Below are positions 3,566 to 48,722 of a stretch of 64,000 bases of DNA, piece after piece. Under the pieces are notes generated by a model. That model made no database searches. It was not told where the DNA came from and worked only from the letters and a program-made list of their open reading frames with translations. The position numbers were made by a program, and so were the translations under genes. The stretch comes from Octopus vulgaris (lineage: Eukaryota): NCBI GenBank assembly GCA_951406725.2, contig OX597818.1, forward strand, positions 122,822,001 through 122,886,000, given 5' to 3'. The first letter of the stretch is position 1; the number at the start of each line of letters is the position of its first letter.

Positions 3566-3748
3566 GTTGAATGAATTATCCTAGTATGGATAATTCGGTT
3601 AACCGATACCTGGGTAGCAAATTCACTTCAGAAAAACACGGTTGAAGCCACATGCCAAGGGCAGAGATCACGTGCTTTCGTGTGGAAAGTTGTGTGTTTC
3701 TTAATACAAATAAATGAAAGAATGGAGTTGAACGACGATTTAACAAAA

Positions 3749-3847
3749 TTCCTTTATTCTCGACATATGTTTCAAAGCCTGCATATTCCTAATTTCGAAG
3801 GAATAAGGGGTGCATTATGCTGCCTTCTCATCAGGAGAGACAAGGAA
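3749..3847 (-). ncRNA. Type I hammerhead ribozyme, mirror copy on the minus strand
   Basis: Reverse complement: ttccttgtctctcCTGATGAgaaggc...gcaggctttGAAACatatGTCgagaataaaggaa; core intact, two changes in stem II. Confidence 0.8.
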
Positions 3848-3970
3848 CTTATGTCAGCATCAAGATGAACAAAAACTCTTAGATGACTGCCCACTCGGAG
3901 TCCATAGCGATAATGGACTCTGAGTGGGCAGTTATCTAAGAGTTTTTGTTCATCTTGATGCTGACATAAG

Positions 3971-4069
3971 TTCCTTGTCTCTCCTGATGAGAAGGCAGCA
4001 TAATGCACCCCTTATTCCTTCGAAATTAGGAATATGCAGCCTTCGAAACATATGTCGAGAATAAAGGAA
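3971..4069 (+). ncRNA. Type I hammerhead ribozyme
   Basis: Stem I tctc(3980-83)/gaga(4057-60), extended by ttcctt/aaggaa; core CTGATGA 3984-3990; stem II gaaggc...gccttc; GAAAC 4045-4049; palindromic stem III ACATATGT; GTC cleavage triplet ending at 4056. Confidence 0.88.
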
Positions 4070-4194
4070 TTTTATTAAATCGTCGTTCAACTCTATTCTT
4101 TCATTTATTTATATGTATATATATATATTATTTATCTTATATGATTGAACGCCACGCATACATTTCCAAGCATATATATATATAAAAATATATA

Positions 4195-11368: not shown

Positions 11369-12388
11369 TTCGATGTCTGATCAGTAAATATCCGAACTGT
11401 TGTCATACTAATGAAACTAAAGCCTTCAACGTAAATCTGCGTGATACTGAATGACCTTCAACACTTCTGTGCAAGCTCACTGCGTTTTAACGTTCTGACT
11501 CACATCCTCTGTTTACAGTTGAGCTCGGATAGTACGTGTGTAGCGTGTCTATCGTAGCATCGATCATGACAGAGAAGGTTATGATGGCGATACCAGCTCA
11601 GGAGCCGACGCAATGTTGCAGTAAGTGTATGGAGATGAATGTATGCGCTGCACACAAGTGTACGAGTGGTTGAGACGTTTTCAAGATGGCCGAAAAAATG
11701 TCGATATTGACGAACGTTCTAGGAGACTCGCAACCAGCAGATTTGGGAAAAATATCGCAGATGTGCGTGCAGCTGTGAGAGGAAATCGTCGAATCCCCCT
11801 CTTTGATTTATCAGAGGATGTGCAGTTTAAACAACCTAGCTTTTTCATCAATAATGATAATCACAGAATCGCTTGTGCTAGTTGTTAACTGTCATGTATG
11901 AAAGAAAATAAATATGAACAGCTGCATTATAACACAGAGACTTTCATAATACAATAACGCTGTATAAATTATTCGTTGCACTTTTGTACAAGAGATCCCC
12001 ATTTTAAGAACATCTGCCAAGTATGTGCCAAGTATGTGCCAAATTTGCTTTCAGCTGACCAAAAAGTCACTCTGGGTTCACTTGCACAAGATCTCTTTGA
12101 TTGCGTCGAGAACGATGAAAACCTTTAGAAAAGTTTACATAGGTCTCTGAGCAGGTATCACCAAGCTTTCGGCAAAATTTGATGCTGATATAGTGCTCAA
12201 CTTTGTCATGGTTAACGCGACGATCACATGCTACACACGTTCCTTCAAAGCACTGCGGTAAACATCGGAAGTGAGCTATAATGTTAAAACTTAGTACGCA
12301 TGCACATCAGAGTTCACAGCCAAGCGTGTTTACTCTGCATAATTTAGCTTCGTTACTATGGCAAAAGTTGAGATACTTATAGATCAGA
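11369..12388 (+). mobile_element. Internally deleted mariner transposon with TIRs
   Basis: TIRs tctgatcagtaaatatccgaactgttgtcata and the reverse-complement tctgatctataagtatctcaacttttgccata; HTH region VYGDECMRCTQVYEWLRRFQDGRKNVDIDERS; AKYVPNLLSADQK. Confidence 0.88.
11826..12015. repeat. 190-bp inverted duplication of 13412-13601
   Basis: Ungapped reverse-complement match with few mismatches. Confidence 0.93.
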
Positions 12389-13118
12389 ATATATATATAT
12401 TAATAATTAATATATGCTGAAGATTTGTGAGGCAGCCGAAATAAAGTTGTCTTGCAATTATTACCATAAAACTTAGACGAACTTTTTGCGATTGAAGTAA
12501 CATCAGATTGCATGTAAAACTAGTTCACTCCTGCATCGCCAAGGATAAACGTGTTCCCGTTGTCTTCTCACCTGAAGTGCAACACCCTTTCAAAAGCTAA
12601 TTTTCTCCCTCACTGCATCAACAAGATTACGTGATAGTCCGACATCTCAACAAACTAGCCGACTCGTTAGAACATGGGTAATTACCTTGCGGTCGTTTGT
12701 ATCAGGTCTCTGCAATCTATGTTCAAATGTCACTAAGGTCAAATCTGACGTTTCATTTCTTTGGAGTTGATCAAAAAATTTACTATTCAAGGGCGATGGA
12801 TTGGTAAAGGTGCAGGATCGTCATACGCAATACGTAATAATACTTGTTTCAGTTCTTGACGTTTAGAGTTCTTGGATAACAGATTTAATAAGCGGGTAAT
12901 TAAACACCAAACCAGCATTTTGCAATGACATGCGGTGTCTTAGGCCCAGTTCATTCTATTTTACGTATTTGTACCAGCTCTCCCGTTTGAGCATAACTTT
13001 CTCCTATAATCCTGCCAGGCTTTGTATCCATAAATAGCAAATCGTGGGCGCCGCTGTTCCTCCAGCTTTGATTAAACTGCCAAAAACCAAAATCTCCTTT
13101 TGTATTATGTAAATTAGA

Positions 13119-13243
13119 AGCCTCGTGGAGCTTTTTAGGTGTTTTCGCTCAATAAACACTCACAACGCCCGGTCTGCGAATCGAAACCGCGATCCTACGA
13201 CCGCGAGTCCGCTGCCCTAACCACTGGGCCATTGCGCCTCCAC
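13119..13243 (-). mobile_element. 3'-truncated tRNA-SINE head flanked by a 12-bp TSD
   Basis: Matches the 5' 125 nt of 25761-26146; atgtaaattaga at 13107-13118 and 13244-13255. Confidence 0.9.
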
Positions 13244-14744
13244 ATGTAAATTAGATAAACACTTGTTAAAGACGATCACACTGATCTTCATTCCAACAAC
13301 ATTACGCATAAGTGATTCAATTGCTCATGTAACGGGTTGAATTTTTGCTGAACGGTTCGGTAGGGAAAAAGCGGTACACTGACGTAATTGAAGAGGTAGA
13401 AGAGACTGAAAAGATGTTCTTAAAATGGGGATCTCTTGTACAAAAGTGCAACGAATAATTTATACAGCGTTATTCTATTATGAAAGTCTCTGTTTTCTAT
13501 TGCAGCTGTTCATATTTATTTTCTTTCATACATGACAGTTAACAACTAGCTCAAACGATTCCGTGATTATCATTATTGATGAAAAAGCTAGGTTGTTTAA
13601 ATTTGTTTTAGTATTATTTATCGCCAATTCAATTTCATCAACATTTATAATAAGCACAAATATTTCAGAACAGTCGTTCCAAACTTTGCATACCTGTCTT
13701 TCTGTGGTGCAAGATAATAGTTGAGTGGCTGCGGCTAAGAGAATATAACTATAAGTAGGAGAACGTGATGTTAACACCATCGCCTCTATTATGTTTTCTT
13801 GTACTTGTTGTTGTTTATACATCATTAACATCGCTTGTCACAATGAAATTAACTACATTTTAAAACTAATTCTGTTCTAACAAGTATATCCTGAGCTTTA
13901 TTGTTCCACTATATGTGGTTTAAATTTTTAGAATAATTATTAGAAGTTATGAAAATTTTACTTTCTCATTATCAAATGTGATACTAGTGTTCTGGAGAAG
14001 GTGCGAAAATTAATCAAACATTTTGCAATAGTGTGTGTATAGACGTTGATTTCTTTTTTATCACACACGTTAATTTTATAAATAAAAGAAGAAAGTGATG
14101 TACTAGTAATGTTAACTCCATTGCCTCTATTACGTTTCCTTGCTTTTGCTGTTGTTTATGAACGTTTAGCATGACAACCGGTAGATTATCTTTTGGTTAC
14201 CCCTTCAATGTATTATTTACATGCTACCAAATATATGGCCATCTACGAAAATGAAGGAATATTGTAAATTTAAATGTGCTTTTGAGATTAATATATTTTT
14301 TTTGATACACCTTCAGAATAATTACATCAGGAACTAAAGTGTATACAATGTCATCATACATTACATATGTGGTTGTTTAGACATGTCTGAATTAATTCAC
14401 TGTCTACTCACAAAAATCTGGATGGATTTAATTATTAATTTCAGCTGGCTGGAAACAGTTACAAATTCCATCAACTGTCAAATCCGAACATTGGTGAGTG
14501 AGAACATATGTATGATAAAAGCCATTAACTCGCTGTAATGATCTTTTCTAAATTTGTAAATTTTTTTAAATATTATGAACTTAAACTTGGTAATAATTCA
14601 ATTTGAAATTTGCCTTACACAACACATTTAGTTTGTAAGAACATCATTAAATACAGCTGCGTATAGAAATTATGCACCCCCACTACACTCACTACACATA
14701 CGCACGTGCACACGCACATACATATACAAACATGTATTCGTCCG

Positions 14745-42149: not shown

Positions 42150-43570
42150 TAAACGTCGTTAATACATGCGTAAAATGCGTGTTGTAGTCATACATGGTAT
42201 GGTAATAAATGAGGCCGTAATGGAGAGATGGTACATTGTGTGGAAGTACTTGTTTAGTAATACATAGCGAAGTAATGCATGGTGTGGCAAACTGTGGTAA
42301 TACAAGGTTCAGGAAATACATAGTTTAGTAAAACATGCATAATACAGGCAAAGATGGTGATGTAATGTGTGATGTCGTAACACATGGAGGAGTAATGCAT
42401 TGTACATGAGGGATAATAAAGTGTGTGGGAAAGCAATGCATAACGAAGAAAAACGGTGTGGACATACGATTTGTAGTAATAAATAGGTTACTAAAAATGT
42501 ACATAATACAGCATATATATGGTGTGGTAATATATAATGTCGGAATACATGGAGGGGTAATGTATTGTATATGAATTCATAGCTTTGTAATATATAGCGA
42601 AGTAATGCATGATGTGGCAAAATGGTGTGGAAATACATGATTAGTAAAACATATATAATCTAGCACATTCATGGTGCGGAAATTCATAGTTAAGTAATAC
42701 ATGGTAAATACGCGTTGCAGTAATGCATAATTTCGTTAAAGATGATGTAGCAACGAATGCTATGGTAAATTCATGGTGTGGTAATGCATGAATTCGTCGC
42801 ATACGCTACGGTAATGCATGATATGATGTGTGGTAATACATAGAATACACAGTTTGGTAGCATATGTTGTGGAAGTTTGTAAAATGTATGATGTGGTAAT
42901 GTGTAGTCTGGTGGTGCTTGGTGAGGTTTGGTGATACATGGTACGGTAGTGCATAGTTTTGTAATATATAGCATGTTTTGTAAAATATAACATTTCATAG
43001 CGTGATGGGCTAATTTATTGTGTGACAAGACATTGCTTGATAATACATGGTGTGGTAAAACAGGGTATCGTAATTCATGACGTATTAATACATTGTACTG
43101 AAAAGTAACGTGTTGTAATATATGATGGGGGTAAAACAATGTGTTGGTAATCATGGGGTGGTAACTCATGGTGTAGTAATGCATGATGTAGTAAAGTATG
43201 GTGCGGTAACATATAGAGGGGTACGGTAATATATGGTGCAATAATACACAGAGTGGTAATACATAATGTGCTAACACAAGGTGTGTAAAACTATGATGTG
43301 GGAATGTACAATGTGATGAAGCAGGATGTGATTACAAATGGTGTGGTATGGTAGTACATGTTAAATATATGTAATACATAATTGTAATACATTGTGTGCA
43401 AATATATAATGTGTAAGCCCATTGTGTGGTACGTTAGTGGTAATATACGGTGTGGTATGCATCTTGCAATAAGACATGTGTACGTCCATGCTGACGTAAT
43501 TCATGTTGTGGCAATATATAGTTCGGTAATAGAAGTTGTGCTAATATACGGTTGGCTAATGTGTGATGTT
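42150..43570. repeat. Decayed minisatellite (unit about ATGGTGTGGTAATAC)
   Basis: Recurring gtgtggtaatacat/gtaatgcatg motifs throughout; higher-order copy 42256-42345 vs 42587-42660. Confidence 0.75.
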
Positions 43571-47111: not shown

Positions 47112-47325
47112 TTGTTTGTGCGTCTGTGTTTGTCCCCCTTGACAACCGATGCTGGTGTGTTTATGACCCGTTACTTAGCGGTTCGGCAAAAGAGACCGAT
47201 AGAATAAGTACTGGGCTATCAAAAAGAATAAGTCCCGGGGTCGAGTTGCTCGATTAAAGGCGGTGCTCCAGCATGGCCGCAGTCAAATGACTGAAACAAG
47301 TAAAAGAGTAGAAGAGAGTAAGAGA
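46933..47325 (+). mobile_element. SINE family A with a deletion in the head
   Basis: ggcgcag joined directly to gttccgggttcagtcccact; rest near consensus. Confidence 0.92.
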
Positions 47326-48537: not shown

Positions 48538-48602
48538 TGTTTCTTTTCTTCTGTAGTTTCAGCTCAGAGCTGCGGCCATGCTGATACACCGCCGTTAGAA
48601 AG
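48538..48602 (-). mobile_element. SINE/LINE-type 3' tail joined to the 5S copy
   Basis: Reverse complement ggcggtgtatcagcatggccgcagctctgagctgaaactacagaagaaaag vs family A tail ggcggtgctccagcatggccgcagtcaaatgactgaaacaagtaaaag. Confidence 0.8.
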
Positions 48603-48722
48603 ACGTTTACAGCATCTAGGTTTCCCAAGCGGTCACCCATCTAAGTACTAACTAGGCTCGAATTTGCTTAACTTCAGTGATCGGACGAGAACCGGTGTTT
48701 TCAAAATGATATGGCCAAGAAA
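48603..48722 (-). pseudogene. 5S rRNA-derived sequence (head of a SINE3-like chimera)
   Basis: Reverse complement ggccatatcattttgaaaacaccggttctcgtccgatcactgaagttaagc...ttagtacttagatgggtgaccgcttgggaaacctagatgctgta follows the metazoan 5S rRNA sequence, with several substitutions. Confidence 0.92.

What the first reader, a model, noticed from the sequence alone, without database searches (positions are those of the whole stretch)
48538..48722. 5S rRNA head joined to the SINE/LINE 3' tail: candidate SINE3 family
Seen: an essentially full-length 5S rRNA copy on the minus strand is followed within about 10 nt by ggcggtg..cagcatggccgcagc.....gctgaaac and an A/G-rich tail. This is the same 3' end as the tRNA-headed SINE family A, with a different hairpin variant (cagc-tctga-gctg vs cagtc-aaat-gactg). 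Known: 5S-derived SINEs (SINE3) exist but are much rarer than tRNA SINEs, and shared tails point to a common partner LINE. Inferred: either a ~185-nt SINE3 family or a one-off 5S/LINE template-switch chimera.
Basis: partly seen in the sequence, partly recalled or inferred. Interest (0 to 1): 0.7.

Follow-up and report, generated by a model that had tools for sequence, protein, structure and literature searches.

The report
Recurrent 5S-retroelement chimeras, not SINE3
This is a copy of an unprocessed 5S ribosomal RNA joined to the last 41 bases of a jumping gene; it is not a self-spreading family but one of many separate fusions in this genome, likely made when the jumping gene's copying enzyme ran off the end of a short RNA and hopped onto a freshly made small RNA.

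Summary
The unit is 5S rRNA (nt 7-119), then 7 nt matching the end and 3' trailer of real 5S genes on the same contig, then the 41-nt two-hairpin 3' end of an endonuclease/RT LINE. Such units are common, but all 60 5S-tail junctions in hand differ. Three 5S gene types pair with several tail types, no diagnostic mutations are shared, and 16 of 60 keep a Pol III terminator inside. Of 93 dispersed 5S copies, 90 are fused to another repeat: 53 at a SINE's 5' end, 23 to a bare hairpin tail. U6 and an intron-containing pre-tRNA are fused at the same points. The LINE-side break is nearly fixed, 2-3 nt before the first hairpin, where solo LINE ends also pile up. Best reading: recurrent end-to-end template jumps onto nascent Pol III transcripts (inferred). 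It resembles U6/L1 chimeras but uses a different LINE, sense near-full-length pre-5S and a fixed breakpoint. The scan noted single chimeras of this kind before, here and in another genome, as one-offs.

The parts
48604..48716 (-). 5S rRNA retrocopy, nt 7-119, of the gene type found in the 5S cluster at G000:C5:16.41-16.50 Mb. Internal promoter region matches the genes; two private changes.
   Evidence: Rfam 92.3 bits; 84 of 85 nt identical to the L141 copy and 115 of 120 to an L140 gene; at least 9 differences from any C4-array gene; private changes
48597..48603 (-). 5S nt 120 plus the first 6 nt of the gene-specific 3' trailer. Marks an unprocessed precursor as template; ends before the terminator T-run.
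   Evidence: Same letters follow the C5-cluster genes L140-L142; 7 gene-templated and 0 extra nt at this junction
48556..48596 (-). 41-nt 3' end of LINE subfamily T1: two unpaired A's, hairpin 1 (48594-48573), hairpin 2 (48572-48560), then 4 nt
   Evidence: One change from the 3' end of LINE copies; fold -17.6 kcal/mol, z -2.4, 3 of 200 shuffles as good; ORF upstream in longer copies has endonuclease and RT domains
48538..48555 (-). A-rich 3' end of the insertion; no target-site duplication found
   Evidence: Sequence; TSD search empty for this copy and 0 of 93 complex TSDs for hairpin-ended units
47255..47305 (+). 3' end of a neighbouring tRNA-type SINE A copy with the homologous tail (type T3); comparison only, a separate insertion

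Best explanation
The locus is a chimeric retrocopy: a 5S rRNA precursor copy fused in sense to the 41-nt 3' hairpin end of a LINE, one of many fusions with different junctions, likely made independently by the LINE reverse transcriptase jumping from the end of its first template onto the 3' end of a nascent Pol III transcript. Step 1 (inferred): the LINE protein binds the two-hairpin tail and primes on genomic DNA. Step 2 (pattern shown, cause inferred): the first template ends at a preferred point, either the 5' end of a SINE RNA or 2-3 nt before hairpin 1 of the tail. Step 3 (inferred): the enzyme jumps to the free U-rich 3' end of pre-5S, U6 or pre-tRNA and copies it to or near its 5' end. 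Step 4 (supported): the joined cDNA integrates as one unit. The copies show no sign of having spread further as a SINE.
For: Junctions: 60 of 60 differ. Linkers match real gene trailers: C4 array and C5 cluster. 5S body type tracks trailer type (16 of 18 C5 bodies have the C5 trailer) but each of three body types occurs with T1, T2, T3b, SINE A and SINE B partners. No partner-specific private changes. 16 of 60 keep four or more T's in the linker. Sample of 93 dispersed 5S copies: 53 at a SINE 5' end, 23 bare tails, 1 three-part 5S+5.8S+SINE, 90 with some repeat partner, no antisense hit to the reference partners. U6 behaves alike: of 38 dispersed copies, 17 at a SINE 5' end, 14 bare tails, 2 onto the 5' end of another U6. 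A tRNA with intron-like insert and trailer is fused to tail T2. TSDs enclose the whole unit in L147 and L170 (2 of 18 against a null of 0.07) and by eye in L096 and L119. Fixed break: 44 of 52 T1/T2 chimeras carry 3-4 LINE nt before GGCGG, 36 of 43 without those picked by the pattern. Tail copies picked only by the tail stop at 28-42 nt in 28 of 69 (T1) and 29-43 nt in 20 of 30 (T2); 1 of 69 stops at 43-123 nt. R2 RT jumps only on reaching a template 5' end (PMC8594491 passage). RtcB ligation is strongly reduced by a 5' triphosphate or a 3' OH (PMC6789731 passages).
Against: No biochemical or RNA evidence for the jump. Junction letters do not separate jump from ligation: 17 of 52 are clean, 3 overlap, 32 have apparent extra bases that may be trailers of genes not in hand. 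No source gene was found for the commonest trailer (CACAC type; 25 exact matches, the 11 displayed all chimeric). Body and tail types are not fully independent (T1 leans to the CACAC trailer, T2 to the others). Same-partner pairs share slightly more private changes than different-partner pairs (0.044 against 0.031; 17 of 300 permutations). At least 2 of 93 junctions lie inside the LINE (L132, L134), not at a natural end. Hairpin-ended units have no TSDs, so single-event insertion for the window copy is inferred from the class. The R2 rule may not hold for this RT.
Confidence: 0.72

Rival explanations
1. RNA ligation: RtcB or another ligase joins a cut 5S precursor to a cleaved LINE-tail RNA with a 5' OH, and the fused RNA is then retrotransposed, as for human U6/L1.
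For: A fixed LINE-side break in an unpaired linker is what an endonucleolytic cut would give; 17 of 52 junctions are clean; U6 is among the partners; an unchecked scan note reads another U6 class in this genome as ligation.
Against: 53 of 93 5S copies and 17 of 38 U6 copies join a SINE at its 5' end, and 2 U6 join another U6's 5' end. Pol III 5' ends are triphosphate or capped (established knowledge), which RtcB uses poorly (PMC6789731 passage). Primary Pol III 3' ends are U-OH, not cyclic phosphate (established knowledge). The tail-only class alone could still arise this way.
Confidence: 0.13
2. A true SINE3, or a small one hidden in the set: one or a few 5S-tail master copies were transcribed by Pol III and mobilised by the LINE.
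For: Architecture is that of a SINE3; the internal promoter region of the window copy matches the genes and it has no T4 until 48483; dispersed copies probably exceed 100; a 2026 octopus repeat annotation lists one '5S' SINE family without describing it (PMC13282606 Table 1).
Against: No two of 60 junctions alike; no diagnostic changes; 16 of 60 contain a terminator; LINE-end copies far outnumber 5S-headed ones (1 of 69 T1 tails and 0 of 30 T2 tails sampled have a 5S head), as Kojima 2015 expects for independent switches. The listed '5S' family averages 6 kb per insertion, so it is unlikely to be this unit.
Confidence: 0.08
3. Sequential insertion: a tailless 5S retrocopy came first, and a LINE end or SINE later inserted directly behind it by target preference.
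For: Hairpin-ended units lack TSDs, so two events cannot be excluded at this locus; these elements favour T/A-rich sites.
Against: It would need a second hit on 90 of 93 copies at the trailer, with no antisense case seen; TSDs or split microsatellites enclose whole units (microsatellite on both sides 16 of 93 against a null mean of 6, maximum 12); real genes examined carry no such insertions.
Confidence: 0.05

Closest known systems
Small-RNA/LINE-1 chimeric retrocopies of mammals (U6/L1, 5S/L1; bioRxiv 10.1101/2025.02.02.635956, passages; PMC6789731, passages)
   Same: Small RNA fused 5' of a LINE 3' end in one insertion; recurrent unique events that do not self-propagate; U6 full-length and in sense.
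   Different: There, 5S is about 10% of 253 chimeras and often truncated and antisense, and the L1 part is variably truncated. Here 5S is sense, near full-length and carries its gene's trailer; the LINE is a hairpin-tailed non-L1 type without TSDs; the LINE-side break is nearly fixed; most partners are SINEs joined at their 5' end.
SINE3 (Kapitonov and Jurka 2003, cited in papers read; HaSE3, CoeSINE5, SINE-1_Pmo in PMC5786205, passages)
   Same: 5S head plus LINE-derived tail shared with a tRNA SINE; vertebrate SINE3s use CR1-clade LINEs (PMC7245038 passage).
   Different: No master copy, no uniform junction, no diagnostic changes; the head equals current 5S genes.
Repeated 5' additions of U1 onto crocodilian SINEU-2 (PMC4494074, passages and section 19)
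   Same: Multiple independent additions of a small RNA to the 5' end of a SINE, attributed to template switching.
   Different: Pol II snRNA onto one SINE family there; here Pol III precursors onto four SINE families and five tail types.
[quoted passage not shown]
   Same: Jump at the 5' end of the first template onto the 3' end of another RNA; serial jumps would explain three-part units (L147, L183).
   Different: Shown in vitro for R2; not tested for this LINE.

Membership tests
SINE3 | Head at least 60% identical to 5S rRNA over at least 60 nt (SINEBase criterion) | tested here: met
SINE3 | Short, interspersed, at least 100 copies | tested here: inconclusive
   60 5S-tail units in hand; 23 of 93 in a sample from 611 pattern matches suggests about 100 or more over all tails, far fewer for any one tail; extrapolated, not counted
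SINE3 | 3' tail shared with a partner LINE | tested here: met
SINE3 | Common origin: uniform head-tail junction among copies | tested here: not met
   60 of 60 junctions differ
SINE3 | Diagnostic changes shared by copies but not by the cellular RNA gene | tested here: not met
   None specific to a partner; at most 2 shared per pair, also across partners
SINE3 | Pol III transcription from genomic copies through the tail | not testable with these tools
   Not measured; 16 of 60 contain an internal T4
Small-RNA/LINE chimeric retrocopies | Small RNA copy 5' of a LINE or SINE 3' part, same orientation | tested here: met
Small-RNA/LINE chimeric retrocopies | Each copy a unique event with RNA-gene-identical head | tested here: met
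Small-RNA/LINE chimeric retrocopies | Single insertion shown by one TSD around the whole unit | tested here: inconclusive
   None at this locus or in 93 hairpin-ended units; present in L147, L170 and by eye L096, L119
CR1-clade LINE (partner) | APE endonuclease plus RT in ORF2 | tested here: met
   Pfam PF14529, PF03372 on T1 copy L285 and related L283; PF00078 on L037 and L283
CR1-clade LINE (partner) | RT phylogeny groups with CR1 | not tested
   No reference set held; 'CR1-like' rests on recalled motifs, short 3' UTR, simple-repeat ends and lack of TSDs

The most novel reading that the evidence does not exclude
In this lineage the LINE and SINE RNAs yield a discrete RNA of about 45-55 nt, just the 3' two-hairpin module, that works as a minimal retrotransposition adaptor: it primes at the target, and the RT then jumps onto La-type nascent Pol III transcripts (pre-5S, pre-U6, intron-containing pre-tRNA). 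The genome would hold hundreds of ready-built SINE3/SINEU prototypes that failed to spread, making the bottleneck in SINE birth directly testable.
Probability: 0.35. Interest if true: 0.7.

Novelty: new variant of a known kind. Interest (0 to 1): 0.5.

Why it matters
It corrects a likely mis-annotation: a repeat pipeline could build a '5S SINE' consensus from copies that share no master. It extends small-RNA chimera formation from mammalian L1 to a hairpin-tailed LINE in what appears to be an octopus, at a scale where nearly all dispersed 5S copies sampled are chimeras. Fusions onto SINE and U6 5' ends are genomic evidence that favours end-to-end template jumping over ligation, a question still open for U6/L1. 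The fixed break beside the 3' hairpin points to an unexplained RNA-processing or RT-stop step. The set is also a fossil record of 5S gene variants and trailers, including one whose source gene was not found.

Tried and rejected
Tandem-array spacer: real 5S genes end in trailer plus T-run with no tail (47 gene copies with distinct flanks). TSD at the window copy: none. Inverted likeness of the two flanks (score 12): not exceptional, 13 of 60 units score higher and two tie. Twin priming: no antisense hit in 93 against nine reference partners. Idea that L132 joins a full-length LINE 5' end: rejected, the junction is internal in 19 of 19 other copies. ARAGORN found no tRNA in the window or in seven loci, so the tRNA origin of the SINE heads is by resemblance only. 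Expression: no RNA holder listed. Empty site: no joint across the insertion in four contig sets. Literature: no description of octopus SINE3 or octopus 5S chimeras in searches (stem-loop truncation hot spot) returned 0 papers. Repbase, Dfam and the Zenodo library of PMC13282606 could not be seen and may hold such a consensus; bioRxiv supplements were closed.

Full report
Observation. The minus strand carries a 5S rRNA match at 48604-48722 (92.3 bits), then TCTTTCT, a 41-nt tail at 48596-48556 and an A-rich end. The tail is homologous to the 3' ends of tRNA-type SINE copies in the window. The host looks like an octopus; this rests on earlier scan notes and repeat content, not on a test of mine.

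Is it repeated? A genome search with the 185-nt unit gave 2,051 first-look candidates. Of 40 scored, one was the window itself and 38 of the other 39 covered both 5S and tail, on many contigs. So the architecture is common, but the copies did not align as one family: the spacer varied in sequence and length, and the tails fell into several types.

Where the tail comes from. The 28-nt tail core has 1,693 exact matches. Most of the first 30 are 3' ends of a LINE, whose longer copies encode an endonuclease and a reverse transcriptase. A second tail type, T2, has 3,044 exact matches and belongs to a related LINE. T1 and T2 fold into the same two hairpins, and the SINE A tail into a similar pair. 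The sequences show compensatory pairs directly: C-G against U-A at the base of hairpin 1, and CU/AG against UC/GA in hairpin 2. I call the LINE CR1-like from recalled features; the clade was not tested.

Where the spacer comes from. Real 5S genes lie in clusters at C4:35.2-35.3 Mb and C5:16.41-16.50 Mb. Each has a short gene-specific trailer followed by a T-run, and none examined has the tail. The window copy matches the C5 type: 84 of 85 nt with the L141 copy (itself internally deleted) and 115 of 120 with an L140 gene, trailer included. The template was therefore a 5S precursor, not mature 5S.

SINE3 test. I gathered 60 distinct 5S-tail units; this is not a random sample. All 60 junctions differ. 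In 112 classified copies, 5S body type follows trailer type, as expected from source genes, but each of three body types occurs with T1, T2, T3b, SINE A and SINE B partners. Private non-CpG changes are not partner-specific; the small same-partner excess (17 of 300 permutations) may reflect age. Sixteen of 60 keep a run of four or more T's between head and tail, which would end Pol III transcription (established knowledge). SINEBase separates SINEs from RNA pseudogenes by shared diagnostic changes (PMC3531059 passages), and Kojima uses uniform chimeric structure (PMC7245038 passage). Both criteria fail.

The wider pattern. A 27-nt 5S pattern has 611 matches with up to one mismatch. The first 100 listed places are exact matches on C1-C9. 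Six lie in gene clusters (one not fetched) and one is a local duplicate, leaving 93. Reading the table by eye: 53 are joined to a SINE at its 5' end (A 38, B 11, C 2, D 2), 23 to a bare hairpin tail (T1 4, T2 12, T3 4, T3b 2, T4 1), 1 to a 5.8S piece plus SINE B (L147), 1 to a longer LINE piece, and 9 to internal or 3' pieces of other elements. Six were unclassified, including two BLAST labels that I dropped as simple-repeat hits; three of the six join other repeats. No antisense partner was found among the references. U6 gives the same picture: 386 matches; of the first 51 places, 13 are gene-like and 38 dispersed, with 17 at SINE 5' ends, 14 bare tails, 2 onto another U6 and 5 internal pieces (read by eye). 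A tRNA with an intron-like insert and a trailer is fused to T2 (L267).

The fixed break. In 44 of 52 T1/T2 chimeras exactly 3-4 LINE bases precede GGCGG; 36 of 43 after removing copies selected by the pattern. Tail copies chosen only by the tail stop in the same zone: 28 of 69 T1 copies at 28-42 nt (12 at 41-42), with 1 between 43 and 123 nt, and 20 of 30 T2 copies at 29-43 nt. Contigs of four public runs show loose ends at 48596-48597 too. The point lies in the unpaired linker 2-3 nt before hairpin 1, after the enzyme would have read through both hairpins. A discrete short RNA, cut there or trimmed back to a protein footprint, is my preferred cause; an RT stop is the alternative. Neither is shown.

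One event or two. Hairpin-ended units have no complex TSD (0 of 93; null mean 0.5) but more often have a microsatellite on both sides (16 against a null mean of 6, maximum 12 in 30 shuffles). Units ending in other SINE tails show TSDs around the whole unit in 2 of 18 (null 0.07), and two more by eye. The window copy has none.

Age. Contigs from runs labelled organisms A, C and D cross the 5' junction by 40 nt or more, and B by 30 nt; A and B also cross the 3' junction; no empty site was seen. T1 chimeras average 5.3% from the nearest gene. The insertion is old and shared.

Mechanism. R2 RT jumps end-to-end and only at a template's 5' end (PMC8594491 passages). RtcB ligation needs a cyclic phosphate and a 5' OH (PMC6789731 passages). 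Fusion to SINE and U6 5' ends, precursor trailers and three-part units fit serial jumping better. Junction letters are uninformative (17 clean, 3 overlapping, 32 with apparent extras). I put jumping at 0.72, ligation 0.13, a hidden SINE3 0.08 and sequential insertion 0.05.

Comparison and novelty. The closest class is mammalian small-RNA/L1 chimeras, where 5S parts are often truncated and antisense (bioRxiv 10.1101/2025.02.02.635956 passages). My searches found no description of an octopus SINE3 or of these chimeras. PMC13282606 (two of three parts of the text and a supplement search) lists a '5S' and a 'U-L1' SINE class without detail. Other papers seen as passages only: PMC4824008, PMC5786205, PMC10886601, PMC4758252, PMC10294476. 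Earlier scan notes read single loci of this kind as one-off accidents; the genome-wide counts show a systematic process. Verdict: new variant of a known kind, interest 0.5.

Noticed in passing
G000:C4:35.20-35.34 Mb (L061-L090): 5S gene cluster with genes in both orientations, a repeat unit of about 5.2 kb and many different trailers; most carry C at 5S position 102, whereas nearly all dispersed copies gathered carry A (partly set by my search pattern).
   Followed up: partly
G000:C5:16.41-16.50 Mb (L140-L142): Second 5S cluster with a distinct variant that has compensatory changes in two helices and its own upstream flank; possibly a stage- or tissue-specific 5S type. Two copies share a 24-nt internal deletion.
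   Followed up: partly
L241-L252 and many chimeras: A common 5S type with a CACAC trailer survives in chimeras, but no matching gene was found; the source may be extinct or unassembled.
   Followed up: partly
L147 (G000:C5:35.96 Mb) and L183 (C9:38.79 Mb): Three-part units: 5S + 5.8S piece + A-run + SINE B inside one TSD; and 5S + 5' part of SINE C + bare T2 tail.
   Followed up: partly
L068/L069 (G000:C25:5.355 Mb): Two near-perfect 5S+trailer copies head to tail, followed by an unrelated sequence; looks like a recent double jump.
   Followed up: no
L267, L272, L278, L281: Other heads on the T2 tail: a tRNA with intron-like insert and trailer, a tRNA-like piece, and two unidentified short sequences ending in T's.
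   Followed up: partly
L316-L322 (G000:C1:139.42-139.43 Mb): Tandem array of seven U6 genes about 1.1-1.4 kb apart.
   Followed up: no
L283:190-4426: 5S joined inside ORF1 of a near-complete related LINE whose 3' end is followed by an inverted duplicate; ORF1 piece has a weak CCCH zinc-finger hit.
   Followed up: partly
window 3704-4114 and 11826-13601: Long near-perfect inverted repeats: 202-nt arms 7 nt apart, and 190-nt arms 1.4 kb apart (possible DNA transposon ends).
   Followed up: no
window 42175-43568: Degenerate 15-nt tandem array of about 1.4 kb.
   Followed up: no
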